From Naegleria gruberi (Eukaryota): DNA of 64,000 bases. Of this stretch, positions 10,712 to 58,529 are shown piece by piece. Every line of letters begins with the position of its first letter. Positions within the stretch are counted from its first letter, which is position 1. The stretch is taken from NCBI GenBank assembly GCA_000004985.1, contig GG738918.1. The stretch is one strand, 5' to 3'. The notes below the pieces were generated by a model. That model searched no databases and was not told the DNA's origin. It saw nothing but the letters and a program-made list of their open reading frames with translations. The position numbers and the translations under genes were made by a program.

Positions 10712-11194
10712 GATATTTTTTTTAATGTTGTTGTTATTAGTATCCAGTATTTACTAGTTTTCTAGTTTGGTGTGGAATAAAACAAGAAAAGACATGGTTC
10801 AATTATTGTTATTTGTTTAAATTTGAAATATATGTAACGGTTTTCTAAAGTGCCAAGAAATCACCTCGCTTATTAACCGTTTAAAAAAAAATTAATAAAA
10901 ATCTCAACAAAATTAATTACTTCCAGTTCATCATGAGTATTATTATTATTTCCAACTAATTTTAAGTTTAATATTATTTTTCAATTTTCATCATGTAACC
11001 CCACAAGAAGGATAACAACAATTCATGACCACCACCTCCAATTCCGGATGTTACCAACAAACATAGCACGATTACTATTTTACCTCATTCCGAAGATATA
11101 AAGTGTTGCTTGGATATTTATCAACACATCAATCGCACACAAGTTTTTGAAGATACACGATGTCAACAGGACGCTAAACAAATATCATCAAAAA

Positions 11195-14100: not shown

Positions 14101-17100
14101 TGATTCAGAGGATATTTTCAAACATGAAATGAAATTACAAGGAGAAATTTCTAAAATCCTTGTCGATTTGGAAAGAGAAGATAGTTCCAAGTTGGCCAAT
14201 TTCTCGCTTTCCAGTTTGAATGTAAATCTTTATATGGGAAAGAATAGTTTATCGTGTGAAGGAGATATTGGTACTGCCTATCTTTCACAACCTAATTCTA
14301 CATCTACTTATCCATATATTCTTTCTCCAAAATATTTGGGCGATCGCTCACTTATTAGATTTGCATACAGTCAAACAGATGATGAGCCAGTAATGAATAT
14401 AGAAAATTCAACCCGTGTTGTAAGAGGTTTCACCGAAAAGAAATCACTAAAGCTTGCAATGGCTTCAATTCAATTCATATTCATCAGCCAATTTATTGAG
14501 GACATTCAGAGTTATTTCCAAGATGGTCCACTATGGGAAGCTTTGGAAAATGGTGGAAAAATGATTAGTGACTATTCAAAAGAATTGATTTCTCAACAGG
14601 ATAAGAAATTGGAAATTATTTCTATGGACATTAAGGTGGAAGATCCAGTTGTTATTGCTCCAATACAAGACAATACTTTCACAGTTCACTTGGGAAATAT
14701 CAGATTAACCAATAAGGGAGACTGGGTTGAGAATGGAATTCCATGTGATAGCTATTCAATGATTTTCAATAGGATGAATTTACAAACTAAAATTAATGGA
14801 ATTGAAAAGACAGTGACTTCTCCATTCAATGTTGCTCTTGGATTGAAAAGAGTTCTCAAGAAGGATCACTTTCCAAGCATGTATTTGGATATTGAAATTG
14901 TACCAAAGGTTTTATTCACTTTGGAACATGCTCAGTATTTACTCTTGTTTCAACTTATTGATTCTTTCAATAAGAAACCAAGCGAAAGTAACGAAAAGAA
15001 ACAAGCAGAAGATTTGGAAAAGAAGGATAGTCTAACACTAATTGCTTTTATTAGAATCAAGTCCTTTGAGTTGGATGTAAAATCAGTAGCTGAGAATACT
15101 GATCTGGCCAAGTTGGAAGTTGAAGATTTCCAAATGAGATATTTCAAAGAACAATCTGGAGACAATATGCAATTCCTTGTCAAATCAATAATTGGAACTG
15201 ATCTAAGAGCTGAAAAGAATGAATATTTCACACAATTTATCACCACTCATTCCAAAACTACCAAGTGCTTGTCAGGTTCAATGATTACAAGAGGAAAGAA
15301 GAATGAAATTTCCCTCCAGATCAATAATCCAATTGTTACAATTATTCCTCAAGTATTTAAGGAGCTGCAAGAGTTCTTCTCCACAATGAAACTTGCTACA
15401 GAACCTCAAGAGGAAAAGAAACCAGAAAAGGAAATTAAGGAAGATGATTTAATGATATCTGTCAAATGTAACGATATTCGTGTAGCTCTTCCTGCCAATA
15501 ATTTCAATCAATTAGCATTCGTAATGAGATGCAAACAATTCTCAATGGAAGATATTCACAATTTCAATATTCATGATTTGGATCTTTCATTCCAAAAGAA
15601 TAGAAACAAATATGATGAGTACACCAACTATATTCTTCATCCAATTAGTTTGAATGTGAGCTATACGGATACTTTAATTATTCAGACAACTAGGGCAATT
15701 AATATTCGTATTTCAACAAGTATTATTCACCAAATTAGACAAGTTATGGACATGTTTACTTCTGAACTTTCCAAAATCAAAAAGACAACTGAAACCAAAT
15801 TGCCACCTTATCAAATTAACAACTTGCCTAATAATAAGGTAGATCTTTCGTATTTCGCTAACTTTTTTGCAAGTTTCAACCAAGAAACCAGATCTGAAAC
15901 CTTTAAATTTGAAGCATATCTAGTGTCAGGAATTTCCATTCTACTTGTCACTGATCGAAATGAAATTGACTTGCCAGCTCTACAACTCGATATTGAACAA
16001 GCGATCATTTCTGATTTCATTAGAATATCCAACATTCAACTATTGTGCTTCAATTTAAACTATGGAGTTTGGGAATCACTTGTGGAACCATTCACAGTTT
16101 CTGGATCTAGAAAAGGAAGCAATTACATTCTTGATATTCCAAAATGTTTATTGAATTTCAATAAGAATACATTCGAAATATTCAAATCTATAATGGAAAG
16201 TAAGGAAAGAAGTGTCATTACGAGAACTTTCTATCCAACAATTGTCAGAAACATGCATCCAACACCAATTACTATTAATGATCAATTACTGGAAGATGGT
16301 CAGGAATATATTGTGCAGGGAGAAGTTTCTTCTATTAGTTTCATTATTAATAATCAAACTTTCGTATTCTCCTTAAAGAAGAAACCAGGAACACATATTC
16401 TATCCTCTGAATGTTTACTCACTGTGGAAATTGTTGATGGAACAAGTTATTTTACCATTCATTCTTTGTATTCCATTGAGAATCAAACAGATGTCACCTT
16501 TGAAGTGTTGTACAATTCGAAACGATGTGGAAAACTTTCACCTAATCAAGTGAAATATCTTCCAAATGCTCCATTTGACAAGACCAATTTGAAAATTAGA
16601 CCATCCTATAGTGACGAGTACATGAGTCCAACATTCGAAGATCAAAATTCATCTCAATTCATCTTTATGAATAAGACTTCCAGTTTCTATTGTGAGTACG
16701 TGGAAGATATTGGACGAAACATGAAAAATTTCACAATTTCTCCACCTCTCAAACTAGAAAATAGAACTCCTATTGAATTGGACATGGAAATTAATGGAAA
16801 GAAATTTTCCTTACAAAAAGAATCCTCACTCTATTACTACTATGCCAATAAGGATTTCTCTGTGAACATTCTGACGAATAATCCTTCATTTAGTGATCAA
16901 TCATTCAGTGCCACAACCAGCAAAACCATGCAAATTTGTACGAATGGTAAAACTATTCCTCAAAAGCAAGAACCTAAAAAATCAAAATCATTTGCTGAGA
17001 TTGTCATTCGTGCACCTTTTTGGATTTTCAATGATTTGGAATTACCTATCAATATTAATGGAATTAATATTCTACCATTCAATTATACTACTATGAACAT

Positions 17101-19360
17101 CAATAATTTGACCATTTGTAGAGATGATAAAAACAAATTTACACCTAATTTGGATAAAATTCCACATGATACCATGGATTTGTGGAAATTAGGAGATAAA
17201 AGAATGGTTTACTATTTGAGAGAAACTGATGAGAGTAAATACATGTACCTCAGAGAAAGATATTACATTAGAAACAATACCAAATTTGATTTAAACATTA
17301 CTTTCGAGAAGAATTCATTCTCAGTCGCTGCAGGAAAGACACAACCTTATTCACATTACAATGATTCACTTCCTAAAATGAAAATCACTTTGGGAGAAGA
17401 GGAAAATATTGTGGAAACTAAATGTCAACAGGAATTGTCACTCAAATTTGGAAAATTCCTAAATGCCAAGCTTTTACTTAAGGAACAGGAAGGTTCAATG
17501 TTTGTGGTGATTAATGAAATACTATTGCCTGAATTTTACGTGGTCAACTCTACAGATTTGGAAATTGTAATTGATAAGGAAGGATTAGCTCCAAAAAATA
17601 TCAAACCCTATCTCAACATGCCCCAATCTGTTATAATTGACACCATTTCAGAGATTATCACCCTTAATAAGATTACAATGAATAAGGAAACAATGAAAAA
17701 GGTTGGAGATGAAGAAATTTATTACACACTCATTCCATATCAACAAGTAATCATTCTCCACATTCACAAAAAGAAAAAGACTGAGGAGAAGGATTATGAA
17801 CTGGCAGTAGATGTTACTTTCTATTCTATTGGAATTTCGATTATTGGTGAAAGTCAGGAATTGGCTTTTATTCATTTTGATCAATTATTTACTAAATTTG
17901 GAATGCTCAATACTCAATTTTGCGTTTATACTAAATTGCGTGGACTCCAAGTTGACGATCACAATGAACAAGAGGTCAACCCAGTTCAATTTGTGAATAT
18001 CAATTCTTCAGAGCAGAGTTTCATTGAATTTACAATAGAAAAGAATGGAAACTATTTTGAAACTGTTTCAGTAACTATCAGAGAAATGTTATTTAGCTCT
18101 AACAATATTTTCATTCAAAAGATGAGTGACGTATTCGCAAGTGCCATGAAACAAATGAAAGCAGTCCAAGAAACAAAACTAAATCAATTCTTGCAATATT
18201 TTGAAGTAGAGGAAAGTGAGAAAATGTTCTTTGGAAAGTTTGAACTCAATCCATTGAAAGTCGATGCTTCTTTCAAGGTGAAACCTTCCAATGATTTGAA
18301 ATACGATTTGGTTTATATTCTTTCCTCTTATGGAACTAAATTTACACACATTGAAAATGCCATAATTAGAATTTACGATTTCAAACTTCCTCAATCCTCA
18401 TTCGTTACCATGCAAGATGTTATGGAAAGAGTTGGAAAACACTACAAACGTCAAATCAAGTACAATTTATTGTCAATTATTGGATCGTTGAATACTTTTG
18501 GAAGTCCTATTCAATTATTTGGTGATTTGGCTTCAGGAGTTACTTCTCTATTTTATGAACCTGCAAATGCCATCACTGAAGGCCCACATATGTTCTTATT
18601 GGGTGTTGGTAAGGGATCTGTTGGATTTATTTCAAATTCTGTCAAGGGAGTAACTGGTTTCACATCAACAATTACAGGAACAGTTGGAAATACGCTTTCA
18701 ATCTTTACACTTGACAGAGATTTCGTCGAGAAGAGAGACAGGATTATGGAAAGGAAACCTGCCAATATTTTCCAAGGTATTGGACAAGGTATGCAAGTTC
18801 TCTTCACAGGACTCATTGATGGAGGTGTTGGAATTATTGCTCAACCAATTAAGGGAGCTAGAAAAGAGGGAGCTTTGGGATTGGCTAAAGGAGTTGTTCT
18901 TGGAATTGTTGGAATTCCTACAAAGCCAGTAGTTGGTATGATTGATTTTAGTATCAAGCAAATGCAAGGTATTCGAAACTTTAATCAATCATCACTTCAC
19001 AAAATTAGAGAAAATCCAAGAATGTTATTTAACGGAGTGATTAAACCATACAAGGAAAATATGGAATTGTTTTTGAGATTAATCCACAAATCCCAACAAT
19101 CAATAGAGTTTAATATTTTAATTCCTTTAGGAAAGACCTTGGCAATCACCAACAGACATTTGCTCATTCCACAATCAACCAACTCTAATGCACTTCAGGT
19201 TGTTGAATTGAATCAAGTGGAAGCTATTGAACAAGTAGATGATGATAATGTCAAGATTAGAGTGGCAAATCAAACAAGTTATTGTGTTTATTTGAATGTG
19301 GAGGCAGCTACTGTTCGTGCCTTGGTTGATAAGATGTTACGTGAGTTGAGTACTAATTAA
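11195..19360 (+). CDS. VPS13: VPS13-family bridge-like lipid transfer protein (chorein N-domain to VPS13/ATG2-type C-terminus), single exon
   Basis: The N-terminus MFESVVAKVLTATLGDYIENLDKQSLSVGVWNGKFKLTDLIVKRSALDLLDLPF matches the chorein-N motif of VPS13. The C-terminal region DLASGVTSLFYEPANAITEGP...GVGKGSVGFISNSVKGVTGF matches the VPS13 C-terminal (ATG_C-like) segment. It is a ~2720 aa uninterrupted ORF. The ATG at 11195 is chosen over the track start at 11147. Confidence 0.85.
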   Translation: MFESVVAKVLTATLGDYIENLDKQSLSVGVWNGKFKLTDLIVKRSALDLLDLPFSVVNGTVGLIEADIPWKSISTSSIKVRLSDIMLVVQPRRCEKIDETSERKRQRMVKQRKLTQYELRRKSENEVSNAASQATTTNQTEETNEKNEKNEKKQEGFVSRLTETIINNLQIEINNIHVRYEDDSDERFKVVMGATLESLSMSSCDVNWQESFLATTAKTFFKKLTLRNLSVYMNNNETELFSLMKNDLDNRKFIEHMRNIIVEKKNYRRFVLSPVNGELLLCMQKDEALDLERPRISAELRLESVNATLDERQYRNIQSTLDYITQFMEKPFDRPMFNSQNECQQYLSQSTDEKVTQFKNYMLMFKRSKKVAWLQPLTKDEAEKLLELEDFIHVDDIMKLREAAYLEIQIEEQKYKQKKKESSYWSKWFGSIDKTIEVTEEDRVEFSKLFGLEEDKGPSFILPPHFVNFALKVKINTIGVKLRNASTRTAAPDSVAVFELTQLLVDFKLRVEGFNVEVSLGGVSGVDNFSTRNEQSISEYYNFVKTNSVGNFVEFKMDSNPMNGVEQMDCKVGNLNVVLNLSLIQKMLSIFILPKYLQRSQFTAPSLPDTLKITKKILNAELDSISVIIPDTLSGKEYFQAHLGHSKLTKINEKIDISLTPIKLLHIGEAEDFTIIQPTDFSISMVQTIDQNLIDVKSTPLMVDVNPQVVTQLVRLGDTVSHFTNNPFGSSKESILIVNNVQMKLPKQEELSSAHIQLHDDGRLLVFKEESSLAPSHNIYFNTVQFHTETNSFKVVDFEFVLSNAKTFEEWKKNLESLLNKSISKAPLPPAIETIVNFSLDSIVLRALNDSSSSEVVAMAQANGLHTNVLARPNDNQVKVTLREITLHDGNQRKIFFSDHSTNIIEISIILCSNKESEFASQHSSKMFLNIKLSDMNLIFNTGIITKLFLFSKKINFEKESPIVMITEDDSEDIFKHEMKLQGEISKILVDLEREDSSKLANFSLSSLNVNLYMGKNSLSCEGDIGTAYLSQPNSTSTYPYILSPKYLGDRSLIRFAYSQTDDEPVMNIENSTRVVRGFTEKKSLKLAMASIQFIFISQFIEDIQSYFQDGPLWEALENGGKMISDYSKELISQQDKKLEIISMDIKVEDPVVIAPIQDNTFTVHLGNIRLTNKGDWVENGIPCDSYSMIFNRMNLQTKINGIEKTVTSPFNVALGLKRVLKKDHFPSMYLDIEIVPKVLFTLEHAQYLLLFQLIDSFNKKPSESNEKKQAEDLEKKDSLTLIAFIRIKSFELDVKSVAENTDLAKLEVEDFQMRYFKEQSGDNMQFLVKSIIGTDLRAEKNEYFTQFITTHSKTTKCLSGSMITRGKKNEISLQINNPIVTIIPQVFKELQEFFSTMKLATEPQEEKKPEKEIKEDDLMISVKCNDIRVALPANNFNQLAFVMRCKQFSMEDIHNFNIHDLDLSFQKNRNKYDEYTNYILHPISLNVSYTDTLIIQTTRAINIRISTSIIHQIRQVMDMFTSELSKIKKTTETKLPPYQINNLPNNKVDLSYFANFFASFNQETRSETFKFEAYLVSGISILLVTDRNEIDLPALQLDIEQAIISDFIRISNIQLLCFNLNYGVWESLVEPFTVSGSRKGSNYILDIPKCLLNFNKNTFEIFKSIMESKERSVITRTFYPTIVRNMHPTPITINDQLLEDGQEYIVQGEVSSISFIINNQTFVFSLKKKPGTHILSSECLLTVEIVDGTSYFTIHSLYSIENQTDVTFEVLYNSKRCGKLSPNQVKYLPNAPFDKTNLKIRPSYSDEYMSPTFEDQNSSQFIFMNKTSSFYCEYVEDIGRNMKNFTISPPLKLENRTPIELDMEINGKKFSLQKESSLYYYYANKDFSVNILTNNPSFSDQSFSATTSKTMQICTNGKTIPQKQEPKKSKSFAEIVIRAPFWIFNDLELPININGINILPFNYTTMNINNLTICRDDKNKFTPNLDKIPHDTMDLWKLGDKRMVYYLRETDESKYMYLRERYYIRNNTKFDLNITFEKNSFSVAAGKTQPYSHYNDSLPKMKITLGEEENIVETKCQQELSLKFGKFLNAKLLLKEQEGSMFVVINEILLPEFYVVNSTDLEIVIDKEGLAPKNIKPYLNMPQSVIIDTISEIITLNKITMNKETMKKVGDEEIYYTLIPYQQVIILHIHKKKKTEEKDYELAVDVTFYSIGISIIGESQELAFIHFDQLFTKFGMLNTQFCVYTKLRGLQVDDHNEQEVNPVQFVNINSSEQSFIEFTIEKNGNYFETVSVTIREMLFSSNNIFIQKMSDVFASAMKQMKAVQETKLNQFLQYFEVEESEKMFFGKFELNPLKVDASFKVKPSNDLKYDLVYILSSYGTKFTHIENAIIRIYDFKLPQSSFVTMQDVMERVGKHYKRQIKYNLLSIIGSLNTFGSPIQLFGDLASGVTSLFYEPANAITEGPHMFLLGVGKGSVGFISNSVKGVTGFTSTITGTVGNTLSIFTLDRDFVEKRDRIMERKPANIFQGIGQGMQVLFTGLIDGGVGIIAQPIKGARKEGALGLAKGVVLGIVGIPTKPVVGMIDFSIKQMQGIRNFNQSSLHKIRENPRMLFNGVIKPYKENMELFLRLIHKSQQSIEFNILIPLGKTLAITNRHLLIPQSTNSNALQVVELNQVEAIEQVDDDNVKIRVANQTSYCVYLNVEAATVRALVDKMLRELSTN

Positions 19361-43630: not shown

Positions 43631-45247
43631 TCAACATGTCTTTTCTTGGTAAAATGGCAAAGTCCAAAAACTGGTAGACTTTGTGTGGGATTTTTGAATT
43701 TCTTCATCATTTCTAATGGATAAATCTATTAGTTTGAATGCTCTTGAATCATGACTCAAGGCCACCAAAGCAATCTCTTTGTCTCTTCTCCAGCTTGGAT
43801 CGACATACATGAAAGGACAGCCATTATTGAGAGCTTTGATAATAATTTCACGATCCATTTTCCAAGAATTTTGGACAAACTTGAGAGCTATGCCATTTTG
43901 TCTGACAGCTGTCAATACAACTTCTCTTTGGTCCTTGAATTTAGAGTAAATATATTGTAAAGACGTTCCATCAGTTTGTACAGCATCCATCACAATGTCC
44001 AAGGTCTGAATCAAACTGGATTGAATTGAATTTGGGTTCTGCCCTATAGCCATTTTAACAATCTCAATATTTTCCCTAATTGATGCTGAGAAATAGTGTA
44101 ATAGAAGGCCATTTCTTTGGACAACCTGTCGAGCAATATCAACATCATCGTTCAATGGATAATCAATGTTTCTCATTACATTGGGGTTAATTTCTATCAA
44201 TTGGAGAATGAAATCCTTGTCTGTTCTCAAACTCGAATCAGCATATACAATATTGGATGGAGATTGTTTCACAGCTTCAATGAAAACTGTTTTGTCCTTA
44301 AGAAAGTTTCGAGCATATTGCAAATTGGTTGGATCTATTTTCAGTGCTTCAAGTACCATTTCCTGACTGATGATATTTTGTGGAATGCTATTTAATTTGA
44401 AAAAGCCTTCCTTGACAACCATAAGAGCTAGATCTGGATTTGCTTGCATTTCTGAAGATAATTTTTTGTAATCCAAGGGCCTTTTCTTAATCCAATACTT
44501 TAAAAACTCAATATTACTAATCGCATAAAGAATTGAAGAATTATTCCTCACAGCAGCACAAAGAATTTCAAAATCATTCATGAATTTTCCATCTGCACAT
44601 GTCAGAGCCGTTGCATTATGTCTTACAACTTTTAAAACCACGTCTCTATCAGATTTGATCGAATCATCAAATGCCATAAGTGATCGTAAGACCTTTCCTA
44701 AAATACAGGCAATCTCCTTATCTTTCCTCAATCCATCTGAAAGACATGATGAAATGGCCGAAAGAATATAATCACGAGTACAATATTTAGTGGCCACTTG
44801 CTTAATCCACTCCTTATCTGAGAATAAGTTGTGCTTTTTAAAATGATTTTCAATATATCTCGTATGCAATTCAAAGTGATCATTGCAATATCTAAACACA
44901 TGAAGAGCAACTTGCTTCTCGAATTGAATTTCTGGAAGGAAACGAATAATCTTCCAATCCATCAGTGCCAAAGAGATGAGAAATTGTCGATCCCTTTTCA
45001 AATCAATCAATTGCTCTGAAAATACCAATTCTCGTAAGCATTCGGGATTTGTTTGTACCATCATACGAATTTCTACCTTCCTCCGATAGGAAATATCAGA
45101 GATTTTGCAAAAAAGCCTCTCGGATAGATAGTCAGCATCGAGAATACAACAACATCTCCCATTACCATTTGAAAAAGTATGGAATTTTTTCTTTAAATTT
45201 TGAAAGATCTCAAATTTTAATATTGTAAAATTATTATTTTCAATCAT
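43631..45247 (-). CDS. DUF4116-like repeat protein (second family member in window)
   Basis: 538 aa with repeated LRTDKDFILQLIEINPNVMRNI / DREVVLTAVRQNGIALKFV / DKEIALVALSHDSRAFKLI motifs. Confidence 0.55.
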   Translation of the reverse strand: MIENNNFTILKFEIFQNLKKKFHTFSNGNGRCCCILDADYLSERLFCKISDISYRRKVEIRMMVQTNPECLRELVFSEQLIDLKRDRQFLISLALMDWKIIRFLPEIQFEKQVALHVFRYCNDHFELHTRYIENHFKKHNLFSDKEWIKQVATKYCTRDYILSAISSCLSDGLRKDKEIACILGKVLRSLMAFDDSIKSDRDVVLKVVRHNATALTCADGKFMNDFEILCAAVRNNSSILYAISNIEFLKYWIKKRPLDYKKLSSEMQANPDLALMVVKEGFFKLNSIPQNIISQEMVLEALKIDPTNLQYARNFLKDKTVFIEAVKQSPSNIVYADSSLRTDKDFILQLIEINPNVMRNIDYPLNDDVDIARQVVQRNGLLLHYFSASIRENIEIVKMAIGQNPNSIQSSLIQTLDIVMDAVQTDGTSLQYIYSKFKDQREVVLTAVRQNGIALKFVQNSWKMDREIIIKALNNGCPFMYVDPSWRRDKEIALVALSHDSRAFKLIDLSIRNDEEIQKSHTKSTSFWTLPFYQEKTC

Positions 45248-48197: not shown

Positions 48198-50369
48198 CTA
48201 CTTTCTCTGTTGACAATATCTGAACCAAGTGTCATTTATGACCATATCTCGCACAAAGGTTTCCAATTTATCCAAGGCATCGTATCTTCCCAAACCATTC
48301 TCAATTTCCACTTTTGATTGTTGCAAAACTTGTCCTGAAATATTTAAATGATTATCTCCACTAGGATCAATGAATTGTTTGAGAACTTGCTGTTGTTTCT
48401 CGACACGATCTTGTGCATTGGGAATTCTTCTGTACTGCTCAACAGTTTCCAAGAAGAGAAAGTTTTCCACTGATCTTTCCTTTTCGCACTGCTTTTTAAA
48501 TTCCTGTCTCAGTTGAGTATTGTTGAACATTTTATCAAATTCCATGATGAGCTTGATAGATTCGAGAAGTTGTTGATTTTGTTGTTTCTTTTCTTTCAAT
48601 TTCTTTTCCTCACTCAAATCTTTACATACGAGAAGATAGGTATCTCGTAAAGATTCACATTCTGACTTTTCACTGTTTGGAAATTGAATTAATTTGGCAG
48701 AAATCTTGACTGGTATCTTTTCACTTGTTGGTTTGGTGAGATGTGTTTCCCATGAGTCTCTTGAGGATTGTACCAATTGATTAATCTTGGATAATAGCTC
48801 AGATTCTTGTGAAAATTCCTTCAAATATCTAGAAATGGAACCAAGATCTTTTTGGGAATATCTGGTTTTGTTAAAAAAGGCAGTGTTGGCCATTGTTACA
48901 TTTGCTGTTTTTCTATCCACTGCCAATACCATATCTGAAATACTGTTCAGTAGAATTCTTGTTTTTTGCTCTTCCAAAGATGCCTTTTCCAGCAATTGTT
49001 CTAACAAGTTTCCTCTCTTGGCTATTTGTTCACTCGAAGCAGCCACCACTCTCAACATGGTATTAATTCTCTGAGTGAGTGTTGAAATTTCTGTAATCCC
49101 CTTCACTGGAATTGTAGAATCTGCCAAATTTTCAGTATTTTTCATAATTTTCCTCAAATGGTAACCTAAATTCACAAGTGGAGTCACAACAATTACTTCA
49201 TTCAAGACGAAAATAATCAGTGATGACAAAATAACAACCAAACAAGTAAATCCATACGACCAACCAAAACTCTGAAGTCCCAATTCTCTTACAGAACGAG
49301 AGAAATCAGTTCTCAATACGAAAGAAGGTTGTCCATAAATATCCTGATAGGTTTGATAAGTAATAATTCGTTCTCCTGTGGAGGATGAATCATTTCCAAA
49401 GCAAATTCTTTGATTCTTTGCACTTTCGGCTACATTTCCCATTCGAATAAGTGTTGGGTCTGTATTTTTCCATTCACTAATGATGCTGCTTGAATTAGGA
49501 TAAATGTATGGCTTGGATTTGATTTGGTTCCACACAGCAGTGAATTCTGAATCCAATTCCTTACCAGATTGCAAATTATACATTGTAATACACACTTGAG
49601 CTCTATTCGAAACCTGACTAACATAAACTGAGCGAATATACCGAGCCCACATCATAATTCCAGGTGTATCCGTAAATCCACAACCACTACACTGCACAGG
49701 AGCTGCCATTACCAAAAACAAAGTTCCATCTTTCAATGTCCAATATCCAATATTCATAGTCGAAAGTATCTGAATGTTTTCCATTAGAAAGGAGGGTAAT
49801 TGATACATTTCTGTTGGCATTGGAACAGCCATTCTACTTTCAAAATCATATCCCACTTTTCCTGCAACGGTTCCATTCAGAAAATAGTATCCAATAAAGT
49901 TGGCACCTGTTAATTCTTCAACGTGGTCTATATTTCCATACGAAACGTTTAGTCTCTTGTTCATTTGGTCTACAGAATAAGTTTTCATGAGGTAATATGA
50001 AGAATCCTATCAATTTTCAGAAAGTAGACATTCCATAGAATAATTACATTTCATCACCATGCGAAATATTCCATTAAATATTTTTAAATATTAACAATTT
50101 ACAATATTAAATATTTACAAAATATTATATAACATCAAAATACTTACCCAATTAGAATAAGTCAACAGAATATCCATCTGATTCTTGAAATCATCCATAA
50201 TAGCCCTCGTCACTCTTGTAGTAGTTTCCGATATATCACTTCTCTCAGCATATTCGAAACTCGAAAGCAAAACTCCCAACAAAACAGCCATAAACAATGT
50301 CATTACCACCAGAAACAAAACAGCCAACACGATAACATTCTTAACTCTCAAACTGCAAACATCTTTCAT
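48198..50369 (-). CDS. Membrane sensor protein: TM1, about 250 aa extracytoplasmic domain, TM2, linker, PAS-like segment, coiled coil, C-terminal RGS domain; 2 exons (50369..50148; 50006..48198)
   Basis: Exon 1 has MKDVCSLRVKNVIVLAVLFLVVMTLFMAVLLGVLL (TM) and ends ...YSNW|gtaagt. The 141-bp intron ends gatag|. The second TM is CLVVILSSLIIFVLNEVIVVTPL. The RGS box is SVENFLFLETVEQYRRIPNAQDRVEKQQQVLKQFIDPSGDNHLNISGQV. Confidence 0.65.
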
Positions 50370-50759: not shown

Positions 50760-53023
50760 ATGTCAACAGATGTAGAGTTGCAAACAGCAGATAGTGAAAA
50801 GAATCTGGTGGGTGATTCGTTTGAAAATAAAGACTATTCGAAACAACAACATGTTCACGAGGGAAATGAAATTGTGATGACCAATGTTTTGGAGGAAACT
50901 ACTTCGAGTGGTGGAATGGTTGACCTCACCGATCAACAATTACCCAAATTCGAAGAGCTGGAATCGACATCTATCAGCGATCGAGGTTCTTTCGTCAACA
51001 TTCGAACAATTTCCTATTCGATTCAAATCGTTACCAATTTCATCATGTTACTCATCGTGGCAGGAATTCTCTTCTCGATATTCTTTACTGGTTTCCAACA
51101 ATTGGAAGAGCACGTAACGACTGAGGCCAATTTACGAATCCAACGAGCAATTTATGATGATTTTAAAAATGCTCTTGCCTTGTTGGCTTCGTTTGGAAAT
51201 TGGGTAAGTTTCGTTGATGAAATATTCGAAAGTTAATTGGAGAATAGTTGGATTTTTATAATGTGATGGATGCTGCGTATAGTGATGGATATAAAACCTT
51301 CTTGGATTGGGTGGATATTAATTATCCGTATGGAATGAGTAAGTAGTTTCGAATATGTTGGGTTGACTAGATTATTTTAATAGTGAGAGATGCAATTAAA
51401 TCGAATTTTGCATTAATTTACTTTAAGAATGGAACACTGGCTGCTGCAAAAGGCTTCAATCTAGAAACAGGAGATATTCTAGAGACTCCTGCTGAGCTAG
51501 CCAACTTGGGTTCTGACAATCCACTGAGAAAGGATATGGACAAAAGCACAACCAGAGTAAATGGATACCTCCTTACTTCCAAATATGGTGCTCTCCTCGT
51601 TTCTGCCTATCCAATCCACTTCAGCCCTCTAAAAAACAATCCACCAAATGGAATTCTCATTTTTGCAAGAATTCAAACTGAACAAGTGACCTCTTCCATT
51701 GCATCCAGAGCTCAAATGTGCATCACCCAATTCAGTGTCAATGATGCAGCACTCGATTCAGTTAGAAAACGTATGAAACTCGATAAACCAACTATCATTA
51801 ATGGATACGACATGAATTGGGAGAATAATCAAGCTTTTGCCTATGAAGAAATTGATTTGAGATATTTGAGTGGAAGAGTTTGTGATTCTGTGAGTGTTGG
51901 ATTGGAAGCAAAGGGTAGAGTAGCAACATTTCAATTGTATGCAGATATTTATGGAAATCCTGCTGTGGTTTTGAGAGCTGACACTGAAAGATTTATTCTA
52001 AATTTGGGAATTAATGCTTTTGTGATTGCTGTTTGTTTGTTGCTTGCGATTATGATTATTCTTGGCATTGCTGTCATTTTATTTACTGAAGTTGGTATTA
52101 TTAGAGGAATTTTACAATTGACTGATCGTGTCACTAAGATTTATGAAACAAGTGACATTTCTAATAGAGTTTCTATGAAAGGAAATGATGAGATTGCAAA
52201 AATTGGTTCCAATGTAGATCAAATCTTGACAATTATCGAAAATTCTCAAGTTCAATTGAAGCAGAAACAAGACGAAATGAGACAACTCTTGCAAAGAATT
52301 TCATTAGAAGAATACAAGACAAAATCAATCATGAATAGCTTACCAAATTCTGTAATCATGGTCGATAAGACAAATGGTGAAGTGGTTGGTTCAAATGAAC
52401 CATTCTATGAATGCACAGGATACTCTGAAAGTATGATCAAAGTTGGAAACTTGTCAGTTGCCAAATTATTCAACAAGCCAAGCACAGATCAATTAATGGA
52501 TGAATTTAAAGAATTGACCTTGAATTCAGGATCGAAAGCAATGAGTATGAGCACAGTTAATGGAATGATTATTCCAGTAATTATCTCAGTACAAGATGCC
52601 AAATTCTATAAAAGGAATAAGGTAGTATCTGCTTTTGTAATTTCCATTCAAGATAAGAGAAAAGATTTGGAATTGGTTAAGGAGGTTGAATTGGATGAGG
52701 AGAAAGTTAGAGAAATTCAACTCTTAATTGAATTTGAGAGAATGATTAAGAATCCAGATAGTCGAGACGAATTTATACGAAAGTGCAATGAAAATGGAAA
52801 GAGATTAACAATGCTATTTGTAGAAGTTAAGAATTTGATGGCAGGACTCAATTCTACCAATTTCCAATATGTATGGGAAAGTTATTGTCAAGTTGAAGAA
52901 TCAATTTCTAATTTCCCAGAGTTTAAATCAGCAAAATTGGAAAAGGATCTTTCTAATCAATTAAATTTGATGGAAATGAATTTGAAGAGTGCCATTATTC
53001 GAAACTATTATAATAATAAATAG
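50760..53023 (+). CDS. Paralogous membrane sensor / PAS / RGS protein; 2 exons (50760..51203; 51371..53023)
   Basis: Exon 1 holds the TM IMLLIVAGILFSIFFTGF and ends ...SFGNW|gtaagt at the same position as its paralog. The acceptor gactag at 51370 is the only in-frame option without a stop. Second TM FVIAVCLLLAIMIILGIAVILF. RGS-like end (IQLLIEFERMIKNPDSRDEFIRKC...). Confidence 0.6.
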
Positions 53024-55002: not shown

Positions 55003-55845
55003 ATGATTGAATTCATTCTTGCTGTTGGTGTTGGTGCCTTGTTGTGTTTGGCTTTTGTTTATTTAAGACAACACAACAAGAATAACAAGTTGAAAGCAGA
55101 CGAAAGTCCATGTCCTTTCCACAATATTCAAAAATACTCGTTATTCACTCCTCATCATTTTAAAGTTGAAAGAGATGAAGATTCCATTCAACTAATGAAA
55201 GACAACTCATTTGGCATTCTTCTCACTTGGAAAGGATCTGAATTACACACCTCTCATGTTCCATTCTTGATGGACGAAACGAATCCAAATTCTCTCAAGC
55301 TGCACTTCCATTTAGCCAAGCAAAATCCTCATTGCAAGGCATTGGAAGAATTTGCCAAATCTCCAACTGCCAACGGATGGAATTGTAAGATTATCTTTGT
55401 TGGACCTCATTTCTACATTTCACCAAAATGGTTTTTGGGTGGATTGGAAGGTCAAAAGAAGAAAGTTCCAACATGGAATTTCACAACAGTTCATGCTCAT
55501 TGTGATTCCTGCCAAGTTTACAATTCACATGATGAAAAGAACAAGATTGTCAGTGATTTGACAGTTTTTAATGAGGATTGGTTGATGGAACATTTCAGAA
55601 ATCCAGTAAAGGAATTGGATGATTACAAGTACGATTTCTCAAAGACTGATGAGAAGTATACTGAGCAAATGTTGAAGGCAATTGTTGGATTCACTCTCAA
55701 TGTTAAGGAATTGAAGGGAAAGTTCAAACTCTCTCAAAATTTGTCAAAGGAAGAAAGAATTTCAATTATCGATGGATTGAATAGACAAGGTTATGATTTA
55801 GCCATTGATGCAGGAGTCCATATGAACAGAACTATCAATGAATAA
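55003..55845 (+). CDS. PaiB-family FMN-binding split-barrel protein with N-terminal hydrophobic anchor
   Basis: ILLTWKGSELHTSHVPFLMDE, LHFHLAKQNPHCKAL, IIFVGPHFYISPKWF, KVPTWNFTTVHAHCDS and AIVGFTLNVKELKGKFKLSQNLSKEER match the PaiB (COG2808) pattern (...ISHLPF.LD..LHGHLARANP...F.GPHAYISPSWY..VPTWNY..VH.HG....GFEI.V..L.GKFKLSQNR). The N-terminus MIEFILAVGVGALLCLAFVYL is hydrophobic. Confidence 0.7.
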   Translation: MIEFILAVGVGALLCLAFVYLRQHNKNNKLKADESPCPFHNIQKYSLFTPHHFKVERDEDSIQLMKDNSFGILLTWKGSELHTSHVPFLMDETNPNSLKLHFHLAKQNPHCKALEEFAKSPTANGWNCKIIFVGPHFYISPKWFLGGLEGQKKKVPTWNFTTVHAHCDSCQVYNSHDEKNKIVSDLTVFNEDWLMEHFRNPVKELDDYKYDFSKTDEKYTEQMLKAIVGFTLNVKELKGKFKLSQNLSKEERISIIDGLNRQGYDLAIDAGVHMNRTINE

Positions 55846-55885: not shown

Positions 55886-58529
55886 TTACTTGGAAGGTGC
55901 AAACTTTTCACACCTGGCAATCATCTCCTCCACAGCTCTATCATTTTCATTCTTTATTTGGAATTGACGATATCTATCAATGGCTGATTCATATTCACCT
56001 TGAATATAATAAGATGAAGCTTGATTGTAAACATTCCATCTTTCCTTTCGTTCTTTCTCTTGCAATTCATACATCCATTCATCCATCATATTATTTGCAA
56101 TGTTTTCTCCCAATTCATAGATTCTCATCTCTTCGTACTCATTATTTCCGTTAATATCGCTCAGTATTGGTGAAGTGTAGACTTCCTCATGAAGAAGTGA
56201 CTTTTCATCCACCAATCTGGTATTGAAAGAGCCCTTAATTGCCTTTTGGAGTCTTTCTGTAATAACTACCGAGAGACCAAGCCTCTTGGTTGTTTCCAAC
56301 ATGATTTCAAAGTTGGTTCTGGCACTTGAAATGATAGCAAAGTTTTTCATTTCATTTGTTCCAATATTACCACAACAAACTTCATTGTAAAGGATTGCGA
56401 ATCTAAAGTTCAAAAGACTCATAATTTCCTTAGTTTGATGGGAAGATCCTAATACGCTTGGCCATTTGCCTTGTTTGGTTGTATTCAACTTTTCTATAAG
56501 GAATAGACAACCCTGAGCTGCCTTTTCTTGGTGTTTATCTTGGTTGGAGCTGGCATTGTAAGAAATGGTAATGCAATCGTTTTCAAAGGCACCAACATGT
56601 CCTCCAGATGTTCTACACAAAGCATTCACGTGGTCAAAGACATCAGACAACATCCTTACAATAATATCCGATCCAATGGTTGTGTCTGACATTTTCAATA
56701 ATTCTGATAATCCCTCCAAGTGACAACACAAAATGGTAATCTTCTTCTTGACCAAGTGCAATGAGAACATATCAACATTTTGAGAGTATTTCTTTCTTCT
56801 AGAGGAGGTATTTTTCATGCTACTTGTGTTATGTGAATGGGAATGATAGGAGCTCGAATGATCACTCTTACTGAATGAAAAGTGGCTGCTCTGTTGTTTT
56901 TCTCCAAATCCTCTATTGCTCTTGTCAGGTCTTATTGTGGAAACAGACTTTTGCTTATCACCTGGCTCCAAAGCGTTCTCATTTCTGTGCTCTAATTGTG
57001 AAAGTAAGTGGGCTGGAATGAAAGCTCTGTAAAGTTTTATACGTCCAACCATTTGTGTGAATTGACCTTGCAAGTGTTTCACCTCGGTAAAGCTACTGCT
57101 TAAAATATTCAAATCATCCAAGTCCATGTGGGCAACACTTTCAAAGAGTTCAATTAAATTGTAGAATGGTTTGACAATTTTTATAGAGACAAGAACAGAG
57201 ACTATCAAACCAATACCCATAATGATAATTGCACCACCAACAGAGGCGATGAATGAAATGATAATCGATCTGATATAATTCCACTTTGGAACAGCAAATA
57301 TAACTGTGAAAAAATATTAGAAATTGAAGTCAATATCAAAAACTTACTCATCCAATCCAACTTGGATTCTGTACAAAGACGATACATTGACACGTAATCA
57401 TCATTAAAATCGAATAAAGCTCTAGAGTTACATTTTGGAATAACAGTCTTGAGATTGGTCATTCCTCTGGCCACCATTTCGGTGGTGATTGGGCTGAATC
57501 TAGGATTTGTTAATTGGAGGTATTCAACTCTTTTGATATTACTTCCTTCAATGTCAGCTAAACTCACTGCTGGGTCATCAACTGAAATTGTTTAAATAAT
57601 TAAGCAAACTATTATGATAACATACTGGCAACTAAAAAGGAAGTGTCTATTTCTACAATAAAACTCTTAGAACCGCTCACTTCCTTGGTTTTCTTAGATA
57701 AGAATTTGGACACTGTTTCAACAGACAAGTCAAAACCAAAATAGTGTTCAAATTGGTGTCCACCATTTACAGGACCACTAGGTTTCAAGCAATTAAGCAA
57801 TGAAATGAAAGTAAATTGAGGCATAGTGGCATCAATATAGCTCTTTGTATAAATCTGAGCACCTGGGGATGAATCACAAGCTTCTACCAAGTTTGACAAA
57901 TCAAAAAAGCCCAAAACTTCATCTGGAGTGGAAGATCTATTACAATAATCCAATTGATCAAAATTATGGCAAGTATACAGCTGTTGGTTCGCTGTTGTAA
58001 TGTTCAGTAATGTTGGTTGTCCTCCCCAATTTATAACACCAAAACATCTTCCCAAATTATCACCAATATAACTCGTAACAATCAACCCCTGATGGTATTT
58101 CCACTCTGTCTTGAACCCCTGAAAAGTGAGCAATTCTGCCTCATCATAATTATTAAAATCCAATGTTTTTACCAATTGATACGTTATACTATCGGATGCT
58201 ATGGATACTTCTCGAAATGTTTGTTCTGTAAATGTTATAATTTCCTTAAATTCGGATGTTCTTAGATTCTGACTCATCTCTACAATGGACGGAACAAAAC
58301 TACTCAATGAAATAGCCACCAGTAACAGAACTGTAATGGTTACTATCAGGGAAATAATAAGGATGAGCCAAAATTTGATGGAACCACAAAATCTAATCTT
58401 TTTAGAAATATCTCCTTCCGATTCTTGATAACTCTCTTCATCATCTTGATGCTGTTGGGCCTCTGGATGATTTGGAGTGTGTAATTCTGAATCCTGAGGA
58501 ACTACCTTACTAATTTTGAATGAGGACAT
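55886..58529 (-). CDS. Receptor-type class III nucleotidyl (adenylyl/guanylyl) cyclase: TM1, about 260 aa ectodomain, TM2, cyclase domain, C-terminal TPR-like; 3 exons (58529..57626; 57581..57348; 57303..55886), two 44-bp introns
   Basis: TM1 FWLILIISLIVTITVLLLVAISL. Junctions ...FLVA|IDDPAVSLADIEGS (donor gtatgt, acceptor aatttcag) and ...SKLDWM|IIFAVPKWNYIRSIIISFIASVGGAIIIMGIGLIVSVLV (donor gtaagt, acceptor ttcacag). Cyclase core CCHLEGLSEL...CRTSGGHVGAFENDCITISYNA...CCGNIGTNEMKNFAIISSARTNFEIMLETTKRLGLSVVITERL. TPR-like YIQGEYESAIDRYRQF. Confidence 0.7.

What the first reader, a model, noticed from the sequence alone, without database searches (positions are those of the whole stretch)
55886..58529. 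Receptor-type nucleotidyl cyclase lacking a kinase-homology domain, with TPR tail and two 44-bp introns flanking TM2
The topology TM, ectodomain, TM, class III cyclase, TPR differs from animal receptor guanylyl cyclases (which carry a kinase-homology domain). It also differs from the 12-TM mammalian-type adenylyl cyclases. The two 44-nt introns bracket the short exon encoding the ectodomain end and are close to the lower size limit for spliceosomal introns. The key metal-binding and substrate-specifying residues cannot be read off confidently by eye, so ATP versus GTP specificity is open.
Basis: partly seen in the sequence, partly recalled or inferred. Interest (0 to 1): 0.6.

Follow-up and report, generated by a model that had tools for sequence, protein, structure and literature searches.

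The report
Naegleria receptor with a dead cyclase domain
This is a real, intron-containing Naegleria gruberi gene for a bacterial-style membrane receptor whose cyclase domain has lost key catalytic residues, so it probably signals without making cAMP or cGMP.

Summary
It lies on the minus strand at 55886-58529, has three exons and two 44-nt GT..AG introns, and encodes 851 aa. It is Naegleria gruberi NAEGRDRAFT_74863, filed publicly as an 817-aa 'predicted protein'. That public model shares both introns but probably mis-splices the C-terminus.

The architecture is TM1, dCache-like ectodomain, TM2, HAMP, a transducer-like helix, a ~70-aa disordered Ser/His-rich linker, a class III cyclase-homology domain and one TPR-like repeat. 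Apart from the linker, it is collinear with bacterial dCache_1-HAMP-cyclase-TPR adenylyl cyclases (hhalign 99.3-99.4%). Those are the right comparator, not animal receptor guanylyl cyclases.

The cyclase fold is genuine (profile E=3e-11 to CyaB; Foldseek TM 0.76-0.78). The catalytic hexad is broken:
- first metal Asp is His574
- substrate Lys is Ala618
- transition-state Arg is Met714
- base-specifying Thr/Asp is Ala702
- only Asp622 and Asn710 remain

All 80 canonical relatives keep D/K/D/[TS]/N/R. None of 44 scorable close family representatives keeps the first Asp, and none of 42 keeps the Arg.

The gene is under purifying selection (18 synonymous: 2 non-synonymous changes). The 44-nt introns are ordinary for this window.

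The parts
55886..58529 (-). Whole coding region (ATG to stop) of N. gruberi NAEGRDRAFT_74863; 851 aa in the model supported here
57626..58529 (-). Exon 1 (aa 1-301 plus 1 nt): cytosolic N-terminus, TM1 and most of the ectodomain
57582..57625 (-). Intron 1, 44 nt, GTATGT..TTTCAG
   Evidence: Junction confirmed by homologues and by the public model. 5 of 44 nt differ in strain L001.
57348..57581 (-). Exon 2 (234 nt; aa 302-379): membrane-proximal end of the ectodomain
57304..57347 (-). Intron 2, 44 nt, GTAAGT..TCACAG; 42 nt in strain L001
55886..57303 (-). Exon 3 (aa 380-851 plus stop): TM2, HAMP, transducer-like helix, linker, cyclase-homology domain, TPR-like tail
58293..58373 (-). TM1 (aa 53-79)
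   Evidence: hydropathy; coordinates
57287..58274 (-). Ectodomain, aa 86-385 (the span includes both introns): double-Cache-like sensor with 7 Cys and 2 N-x-S/T sequons
   Evidence: hhalign to the proximal module of the dCache_1 proteins P0009 and P0065. AF2 model of paralogue P0005 matches the dCache ligand-binding domains of PctD (7prq, E=9e-9) and McpB/C (9a69). Cys and sequon counts. Pfam dCache_1 does not hit this sequence itself.
57176..57268 (-). TM2 (aa 392-422)
57026..57175 (-). HAMP-like domain (aa ~423-472): AS1 'KPFYNLIELFESV', AS2 'TEVKHLQGQFTQMVGRI'
   Evidence: Aligns without gaps to the Pfam-HAMP segment 368-418 of P0065. Profile hit to NarQ TM2-HAMP, E=0.02. Two helices in the AF2 model. 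Pfam HAMP does not hit directly.
56984..57040 (-). Cyclase-transducer-like helix 'IKLYRAFIPAHLLSQLEHR' (aa 468-486), the most conserved stretch of the family
   Evidence: Invariant columns K469, Y471, F474, I475, P476, H478, L480, L483. Aligned to 'FKQYVPANLVRKL' of P0009.
56774..56983 (-). Disordered Ser/His/Lys-rich linker (aa 487-556), absent from canonical relatives
   Evidence: pLDDT below 40; gap opposite P0009 and P0065 in hhalign; composition
56102..56773 (-). Class III cyclase-homology domain (aa 557-780) with degenerate catalytic residues. Codons: His574 at 56720-56722, Ala618 at 56588-56590, Asp622 at 56576-56578, Ala702 at 56336-56338, Asn710 at 56312-56314, Met714 at 56300-56302.
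55901..56077 (-). TPR-like tail (aa 789-847): three helices forming one TPR-like hairpin plus a capping helix ending in 'ARCEKF'
   Evidence: AF2 helices at pLDDT ~90. Weak TPR_11 and TPR_2 hits. Designed-TPR hits, E~0.05. The homologous tail in canonical relatives hits TPR_2 at E=3.5e-5. Aligned to the bacterial tails.
55999..56032 (-). 34-nt segment (GTTTAC..CAAG) that the public gene model removes as a third intron; most likely coding
   Evidence: Read-through keeps the tail conserved in P0002, P0004, P0005, P0006 and in bacterial P0009, P0012, P0014. No differences in strain L001.

Best explanation
The gene encodes a receptor-like pseudo-cyclase. It descends from the bacterial-type dCache_1-HAMP-class IIIb cyclase-TPR receptor family.

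Proposed mechanism:
1. A small ligand, identity unknown, binds the extracellular double-Cache module.
2. The signal passes through TM2 and the HAMP four-helix unit into the very conserved 'YRAFIPxHLLxQL' transducer-like helix.
3. That helix acts on a dimeric cyclase-homology domain capped by a TPR-like hairpin.
4. This domain has lost the first metal-binding Asp, the substrate Lys, the phosphate-binding and transition-state Arg residues and (in this copy) the base-specifying Thr. The output is therefore most likely not cAMP or cGMP synthesis.
5. Instead the output is probably a ligand-dependent change in conformation or partnership of the domain. It could act as a dimerisation or scaffold module, pair with and modulate active cyclase paralogues, or work through the TPR-like cap and the phosphorylatable Ser/His-rich linker.

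Shown: gene structure, fold, collinearity with canonical enzymes, loss of catalytic residues across the family, and purifying selection.
Inferred: lack of catalysis, the ligand-to-output path, and the nature of the output.
For: Fold and homology: the family profile hits CyaB (3r5g) at E=3e-11. The AF2 model has pLDDT ~90 across the domain. The top 50 Foldseek PDB hits are almost all class III cyclase catalytic domains, with TM 0.76-0.78 to CyaB and Rv1625c.

Collinearity with canonical dCache_1-HAMP-Guanylate_cyc-TPR proteins: hhalign probability 99.3% and 99.4% over aa ~252-848; their Pfam architecture is.

Catalytic residues: three independent alignments (HMMER; MAFFT; hhalign) place His574, Ala618 and Asp622 at the Asp, Lys and Asp positions. 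None of the three places an Arg at the transition-state Arg position. Met714 at that position, and Asn710 as the conserved Asn, come from the gapped HMMER register (see the Against line).

Family-wide pattern among representatives at 50% identity:
- 80 of 80 canonical relatives have D/K/D/[TS]/N/R.
- In 45 close family members the first Asp is present in 0 (H13, Y13, L7, F5 and others).
- Lys is present in 2.
- The transition-state Arg is present in 0 (L21, M20).
- The second Asp is present in 22, and Asn in 40.
- The phosphate-binding Arg (R in 78 of 80 canonical) and the 'GD' Asp (79 of 80) are also lost.

The replaced positions vary freely, which indicates relaxed constraint there. Other positions are invariant (G691, N692, G694, N629, K699).

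Not a pseudogene: 18 synonymous versus 2 non-synonymous differences between two strains, and the family is conserved in N. gruberi, N. lovaniensis and N. fowleri.

Pfam PF00211 fails on this protein and is below threshold on its paralogues.

From established enzymology (Tesmer et al. 1997 and 1999, cited in PMC7384201): the two Asp hold the two catalytic metals and the Arg stabilises the transition state.
Against: No enzyme assay exists; inactivity is inferred from sequence.

The family conserves its own set of polar residues around the former active site: Glu/Asp576 in 33 of 44 (two residues after the lost Asp), Glu620 in 36 and Asn621 in 39 (just before Asp622), plus Asn629, Lys699 and Asn710. 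These could form a shifted metal or ligand site.

His can ligate Mn or Zn.

Some class III cyclases with non-canonical specificity residues are still active (from memory: Rv0386 in Mycobacterium).

The alignment register in the Asn/Arg helix differs by one residue between MAFFT and HMMER, although neither register supplies an Arg.

Confidence: 0.6

Rival explanations
1. It is an active adenylyl or guanylyl cyclase that uses a non-canonical catalytic centre. His574 or the neighbouring Glu576, together with Glu620 and Asp622, would hold the metals. Lys699 or Arg708 would replace the lost Arg and Lys residues.
For: Family-specific conservation of Glu/Asp576, Glu620, Asn621, Lys699, Lys/Arg708 and Asn710 around the pocket. 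The fold is intact at high confidence. Purifying selection acts on the gene. Several paralogues are labelled adenylate/guanylate cyclase by automatic annotation.
Against: Every one of 80 canonical relatives keeps all six classical residues, whereas the family lacks three to five of them. The substituted positions are variable: H/Y/L/F/Q/V at the first Asp position and S/N/A/Q/G/H at the Lys position. That is not what a re-tooled catalytic residue looks like. Asp622 itself is kept in only 22 of 43 members. No base-recognition pair of either kind is present.
Confidence: 0.2
2. It is the non-catalytic half of an obligate heterodimer with a canonical cyclase paralogue, as with mammalian C1/C2 or the subunits of soluble guanylyl cyclase. 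One composite active site would be formed and regulated by this receptor.
For: Class III domains act as head-to-tail dimers with shared sites (established knowledge; PMC7384201). Heteroloboseans keep canonical members of the same architecture, for example Willaertia magna P0147 with D/K/D/S/N/R. Naegleria has dozens of cyclases (PMC9928731).
Against: A useful half-site partner must supply either both Asp residues or the Lys/Thr/Asn/Arg set. This protein supplies neither complete set. No partner has been identified, and no linkage to a canonical cyclase is seen among the genes examined in this window.
Confidence: 0.12
3. It is a decaying pseudogene or a gene-prediction artefact with no function.
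For: The catalytic residues are lost. There is no Pfam domain hit and the public name is only 'predicted protein'.
Against: The spliced reading frame is open for 851 codons. Strain differences are 18 synonymous to 2 non-synonymous, while the introns diverge about 14 times faster. Homologues are conserved across three Naegleria species, with invariant HAMP and transducer motifs. The folds are confidently predicted.
Confidence: 0.03

Closest known systems
Bacterial dCache_1-HAMP-class IIIb adenylyl cyclases with a C-terminal TPR-like repeat (e.g. P0009, P0051, P0062, P0065; Lentisphaerota/Victivallaceae MAG proteins)
   Same: The order of modules is the same from the membrane-proximal Cache module through TM2, HAMP, the 'YVPxxLVxxL' transducer helix, the cyclase fold and the 'Y..A...F....D......ERC' tail. 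hhalign probability is 99.3-99.4%; Pfam architecture.
   Different: The bacterial proteins keep D/K/D/T/N/R in 80 of 80 cases, and the transducer helix joins the cyclase domain directly. The Naegleria protein has lost most catalytic residues, carries a ~70-aa disordered insertion at that junction, has a Cys-rich glycosylatable ectodomain, and contains spliceosomal introns.
Naegleria paralogues (N. gruberi D2VR72 'adenylate/guanylate cyclase'; N. lovaniensis and N. fowleri 'Guanylate cyclase domain-containing protein')
   Same: Same architecture and the same degenerate catalytic positions; 34-46% identity.
   Different: These are paralogues, not orthologues. Linker length and ectodomain details differ. 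Some carry N-terminal ankyrin repeats or other extensions (P0055).
The single 'bacterial-type adenylate cyclase' with a Cache domain reported in Naegleria (Upadhyay et al. 2016, PMC4822843)
   Same: A Cache sensor fused to a class III cyclase in Naegleria, of bacterial type.
   Different: That report found one Pfam-detectable protein. The gene here belongs to a larger, more divergent set that Pfam models for Cache, HAMP and cyclase miss.
Dictyostelium ACG and trypanosomatid receptor-type adenylyl cyclases (from memory and PMC9928731)
   Same: Eukaryotic membrane receptors with an extracellular sensor, one cyclase domain and no kinase-homology domain.
   Different: Those are active enzymes with intact catalytic residues and different ectodomains. 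No sequence comparison was made here.
Animal receptor guanylyl cyclases (GC-A etc.)
   Same: Class III catalytic fold; 9bcv is among the fold hits.
   Different: They have a single TM, an ANF-receptor ectodomain, a kinase-homology domain and a Glu/Cys specificity pair. None of these is present here.

Membership tests
Class III nucleotidyl cyclase (catalytic domain, Pfam PF00211) | Cyclase-homology fold / detectable homology | tested here: met
   Profile versus CyaB, E=3e-11. Foldseek top hits are cyclases, TM 0.76-0.78.
Class III nucleotidyl cyclase (catalytic domain, Pfam PF00211) | Scores above the Pfam gathering threshold | tested here: not met
   No PF00211 hit at E<=1. Paralogues score 16.5-20.9 bits against a cut-off of 21.9.
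Class III nucleotidyl cyclase (catalytic domain, Pfam PF00211) | Two metal-binding Asp residues | tested here: not met
   The first is His574; the second, Asp622, is kept. The first Asp is present in 0 of 44 family representatives and in 80 of 80 canonical relatives.
Class III nucleotidyl cyclase (catalytic domain, Pfam PF00211) | Substrate-specifying pair (Lys + Asp/Thr for ATP; Glu + Cys/Ser for GTP) | tested here: not met
   Ala618 and Ala702.
Class III nucleotidyl cyclase (catalytic domain, Pfam PF00211) | Transition-state Asn and Arg | tested here: not met
   Asn710 is kept and the Arg is Met714. Arg is present in 0 of 42 family members and in 80 of 80 canonical relatives.
Class III nucleotidyl cyclase (catalytic domain, Pfam PF00211) | cAMP or cGMP synthesis | not testable with these tools
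   Needs an enzyme assay.
Bacterial-type dCache-HAMP-cyclase-TPR receptors | Collinear domain order | tested here: met
   hhalign 99.3% and 99.4% over aa ~252-848.
Bacterial-type dCache-HAMP-cyclase-TPR receptors | Double-Cache extracellular sensor | tested here: inconclusive
   The proximal module aligns to dCache_1 proteins. The model of paralogue P0005 matches the PctD and McpB/C ligand-binding domains.
Bacterial-type dCache-HAMP-cyclase-TPR receptors | HAMP domain after TM2 | tested here: inconclusive
   No direct Pfam hit. Supported by a gapless alignment to the Pfam-HAMP segment of P0065, by NarQ at E=0.02, and by the helices and the Pro and E-x-x-x-L-x-x-x-F-x-x-M motifs.
Bacterial-type dCache-HAMP-cyclase-TPR receptors | Transducer helix joined directly to the cyclase domain | tested here: not met
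   A ~70-aa disordered insertion lies at the junction.
Animal receptor guanylyl cyclase | Kinase-homology domain, single TM, ANF-receptor ectodomain | tested here: not met
   No such Pfam hits. Two TMs. Cache-like ectodomain.
TPR repeat | Recognised 34-residue helix-turn-helix repeat | tested here: inconclusive
   TPR_11 and TPR_2 at E~0.1-0.2, below threshold. Designed-TPR hits at E~0.05. The homologous tail of P0062 hits TPR_2 at E=3.5e-5. Three confident helices in the model. One repeat only.
Spliceosomal (U2-type) introns | GT..AG ends, frame restored on removal, faster evolution than exons | tested here: met
   junctions match homologues.
Spliceosomal (U2-type) introns | Removal seen in RNA | not testable with these tools
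   No transcript data were available.

The most novel reading that the evidence does not exclude
Naegleria may have taken a bacterial Cache-HAMP-cyclase receptor and expanded it into a large family. At least 45 clusters at 50% identity were seen, all invisible to Pfam. In this family the cyclase pocket is not merely dead but re-tooled. Its new conserved set is Glu/Asp576, Glu620-Asn621, Asn629, Lys699 and Asn710. This set would form either a shifted metal centre with a different chemistry or a nucleotide or ligand-sensing site. The cyclase fold would then be a receptor output or allosteric module rather than an enzyme.
Probability: 0.2. Interest if true: 0.7.

Novelty: new variant of a known kind. 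Interest (0 to 1): 0.4.

Why it matters
Published counts of Naegleria cyclases (81 in PMC9928731) are typically drawn from domain models, although how that count was made was not checked here. Domain models miss this gene and score its paralogues below threshold. Annotations that do label paralogues as 'adenylate/guanylate cyclase' probably overstate their chemistry.

If the family is non-catalytic, it would be a eukaryotic example of receptor pseudo-enzymes derived from bacterial class III cyclases. That is analogous to receptor pseudokinases, and it raises the question of what a cyclase fold does when it does not cyclise.

The result also corrects the public gene model's C-terminus. It adds to the single Cache-cyclase previously reported for Naegleria.

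Tried and rejected
- Direct Pfam scan of the spliced protein: no cyclase, Cache or HAMP hit, only chance-level matches (CCG, EI24). These were rejected as meaningless.
I used the exon-3 translation and paralogue P0005 instead.
- Including bacterial P0009 in the profile for the representative search inflated the scores of canonical cyclases. I therefore classified hits by catalytic residues rather than by E-value.
- The genome-contig scan with P0009 found only unrelated Cache proteins in Vibrio and Campylobacter, so it says nothing about origin.
- The exact look-up of the neighbouring PaiB protein's contig failed.
- The Fritz-Laylin 2010 genome paper is not held. PMC2447327 is held only in part. 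One literature search was swamped by 'cachexia' matches. Searches for pseudo-cyclase terms found nothing relevant to Naegleria.
- Alternative acceptors for intron 1 (56, 59 and 68 nt) were rejected, because only the 44-nt version matches the homologues.
- The public model's 34-nt third intron was rejected. It has a non-consensus donor, it truncates a conserved tail, and it shows no strain differences, against about 4 expected at the intron divergence rate.
- I first suspected a non-gruberi species, because the best named hits were only 43% identical. That was wrong: the orthologous entry was hidden inside the cluster represented by P0001.
Full report
WHAT IS THERE

The window is AT-rich eukaryotic DNA (about 33% GC). 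On the minus strand, 58529-55886 contains three open pieces. Removing two 44-nt GT..AG segments (57625-57582 and 57347-57304) joins them into one 2556-nt reading frame of 851 codons.

The neighbouring gene (55003-55845, plus strand) is 100% identical to a Naegleria gruberi protein. An exact-cluster look-up shows that the gene itself is N. gruberi NAEGRDRAFT_74863 (XP_002670224.1, UniProt D2W0H7). It is an 817-aa 'predicted protein' on the same 222-kb scaffold.

That public model is identical to mine for residues 1-804, so it uses the same two introns. It then removes a further 34 nt (56032-55999, GTTTAC..CAAG). This shifts the frame and ends the protein 13 residues later.

The tail folds into three confident helices. 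The 34 nt show no differences between two strains, whereas the real introns differ at 11%.

THE INTRONS

- Both junctions give uninterrupted alignments with homologues.
- A metagenome contig from a second N. gruberi strain (L001, 98.7% identical) has 10 differences in the 88 intron bases, including a 2-nt deletion in intron 2, and keeps GT..AG.
- The same contig has 20 differences in 2420 exon bases (Fisher p=3e-8). Of these, 18 are synonymous and 2 non-synonymous.
- That pattern supports both the introns and purifying selection on the protein.
- A simple scan finds other likely introns in the window of 46, 48, 56, 74 and 101 nt. So 44 nt is the short end of a normal distribution here, not a limit case. 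Ciliate introns are about 25 nt (PMC5014332 abstract).
- The introns bracket the exon for residues 302-379, the end of the ectodomain. TM2 (392-422) lies in exon 3.

ARCHITECTURE

- Hydropathy gives two membrane segments, 53-79 and 392-422.
- The 300 residues between them carry 7 Cys and 2 N-glycosylation sequons.
- Pfam finds nothing significant in the protein.
- A profile of the Naegleria family aligns over residues ~252-848 with bacterial-type proteins. Their Pfam architecture is dCache_1, HAMP (just below threshold), Guanylate_cyc and a TPR_2-like repeat. hhalign gives 99.3% and 99.4%.
- The Pfam HAMP segment of P0065 (368-418) lines up without gaps on residues ~418-468 here. This stretch has the usual Pro in the first helix and the E-x-x-x-L-x-x-x-F-x-x-M pattern in the second.
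- The family profile also touches NarQ TM2-HAMP (E=0.02) and Tsr.
- An AlphaFold model of the full-length N. fowleri paralogue P0005 (mean pLDDT 72; ectodomain 75-90) has a long stalk helix followed by two alpha/beta modules. It matches the double-Cache ligand-binding domains of PctD (7prq, E=9e-9) and the McpB/McpC model (9a69).
- After HAMP comes 'IKLYRAFIPAHLLSQLE', the most conserved stretch of the family. It aligns to the helix that immediately precedes the catalytic domain in canonical cyclases, called the 'handle' or cyclase transducer element (PMC7384201).
- In this protein a ~70-residue Ser/His/Lys-rich segment follows. It is absent from canonical relatives and predicted disordered, with pLDDT below 40.
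- The cyclase-homology domain (557-780) and the tail (789-847) are predicted at pLDDT ~90.

THE CYCLASE DOMAIN IS REAL BUT DEGENERATE

The single sequence hits CyaB of P. aeruginosa only weakly (E=0.006). The family profile hits it at E=3e-11, followed by Cya2, OaPAC and CyaC. The model's 50 best PDB matches are almost all class III cyclase catalytic domains, with TM 0.76-0.78 to CyaB and Rv1625c.

Three independent alignments agree on the first three rows of this table and on the absence of an Arg at the transition-state position.

| Canonical role | Residue here |
|---|---|
| first metal Asp | His574 |
| substrate Lys | Ala618 |
| second metal Asp | Asp622 (kept) |
| base-specifying Asp/Thr | Ala702 |
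| transition-state Asn | Asn710 (kept) |
| transition-state Arg | Met714 |

MAFFT and HMMER differ by one residue in the last helix. Neither register supplies an Arg.

I then searched 1.84 billion cluster representatives with the family profile and read the six positions in the best 150 hits plus the proteins already in hand, 154 aligned sequences in all:

| Position | 80 canonical relatives | 45 close family representatives |
|---|---|---|
| first Asp | D in all 80 | D in 0 (H13, Y13, L7, F5 and others) |
| Lys | K in all 80 | K in 2 |
| second Asp | D in all 80 | D in 22 |
| Thr/Ser | T or S in all 80 | T or S in 34 |
| Asn | N in all 80 | N in 40 |
| transition-state Arg | R in all 80 | R in 0 (L21, M20) |

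The phosphate-binding Arg (78 of 80 canonical) and the Asp of the 'GD' motif (79 of 80) are also gone. A further 29 more distant relatives are degenerate as well.

Named family members are all from Naegleria. Named canonical relatives are bacterial (Lentisphaerota/Victivallaceae MAGs), plus one from the heterolobosean Willaertia magna. The contig of the closest canonical relative, P0009, has overlapping, tightly packed genes, which is typical of bacteria.

INTERPRETATION

The two Asp residues hold the catalytic metals, and the Arg stabilises the transition state (Tesmer et al. 1997 and 1999, as cited in PMC7384201). Their loss across the family, the free variation at the replaced positions, and strong purifying selection on the gene as a whole all point the same way. 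The cyclase fold is being kept for something other than cyclisation. I therefore read the gene as a receptor-like pseudo-cyclase. The proposed path is ligand sensing by the Cache ectodomain, transmission through HAMP and the conserved helix, then an output through conformation or partnership of the dimeric cyclase-TPR module.

The main caveat is that the family conserves its own polar residues around the old pocket: Glu/Asp576, Glu620, Asn621, Asn629, Lys699 and Asn710. A shifted metal or ligand site, and hence a non-canonical activity or a nucleotide-sensing role, cannot be excluded. I could not inspect model coordinates. A role as the silent half of a heterodimer with an active paralogue is possible, but this protein cannot supply either complete half-site. 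A decaying pseudogene is effectively excluded.

COMPARISON WITH WHAT IS KNOWN, AND NOVELTY

The right comparator is the bacterial dCache_1-HAMP-class IIIb cyclase-TPR family, not animal receptor guanylyl cyclases or 12-TM adenylyl cyclases. The Lys...Thr signature as the mark of class IIIb is from my memory of the Linder and Schultz classification.

Eukaryotic receptor cyclases without a kinase-homology domain are already known (trypanosomatids; Dictyostelium ACG; PMC9928731). A single 'bacterial-type adenylate cyclase' with a Cache domain has been noted in Naegleria and attributed to horizontal transfer (PMC4822843).

What I did not find described is that Naegleria holds a large, Pfam-invisible family of such receptors with a degenerate catalytic centre. 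Published cyclase counts for Naegleria (81 in PMC9928731) are typically drawn from domain models, although I did not check how that count was made. Such counts would miss this gene, and they would treat some degenerate paralogues as enzymes.

I rate this a new variant of a known kind, of moderate interest. The gene itself is already in the public databases.

Noticed in passing
window 55999-56032 (minus strand): The public N. gruberi gene model (XP_002670224.1, 817 aa) removes a 34-nt 'intron' with a non-consensus donor (GTTTAC). This frameshifts and truncates the conserved TPR-like tail, so it looks like an annotation error.
   Followed up: yes
window 48198-49988 (minus strand): A 596-aa ORF has a weak CHASE4 extracellular-sensor hit (E=3e-4) and a clear C-terminal RGS domain (E=4e-10). 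That would be a bacterial-type sensor fused to a regulator of G-protein signalling.
   Followed up: no
window 51383-53023 (plus strand): A 546-aa ORF has weak CHASE4 (aa 5-114) and PAS_9 (aa 323-424) hits. It is probably part of a larger sensor gene, and is a second bacterial-type sensor close by.
   Followed up: no
window 55003-55845 (plus strand): A PaiB-family FMN-binding protein lies convergent with the cyclase-like gene, with 40 nt between the stop codons. Outside Naegleria all listed named relatives are bacterial, at about 30% identity, which suggests horizontal transfer. The Naegleria protein has an extra hydrophobic N-terminus.
   Followed up: partly
P0002 and P0004 (N. gruberi paralogues), alignment columns 211-251 of A1: Both lack a 41-residue Cys-rich piece of the distal Cache module that all other family members have. 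This may be another mis-predicted intron in the public annotation.
   Followed up: no
L004 2976-3755: In the bacterial contig carrying the canonical relative P0009, the next gene overlaps it by 4 nt. It encodes a metallo-beta-lactamase-fold protein that hits the anti-Pycsar Apyc1 family, a cyclic-nucleotide phosphodiesterase. This would be a cyclase-phosphodiesterase pair.
   Followed up: no
L001 827-2506 (protein P0001): The metagenome gene caller read straight through intron 2, because in that strain the intron is 42 nt and has no stop. This produced a spurious 14-residue insertion, a reminder that prokaryotic gene calls on eukaryotic contigs can hide introns.
   Followed up: yes
window 43631-45247 (minus strand) and 11147-19360 (plus strand): One protein has seven DUF4116 repeats. 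There is also an uninterrupted 2737-codon ORF. Neither was examined further.
   Followed up: no
P0055, P0082, P0084 and similar (~1170 aa) from metagenomes: A second degenerate branch carries N-terminal ankyrin repeats ahead of the Cache-like sensor and the cyclase-like domain.
   Followed up: partly
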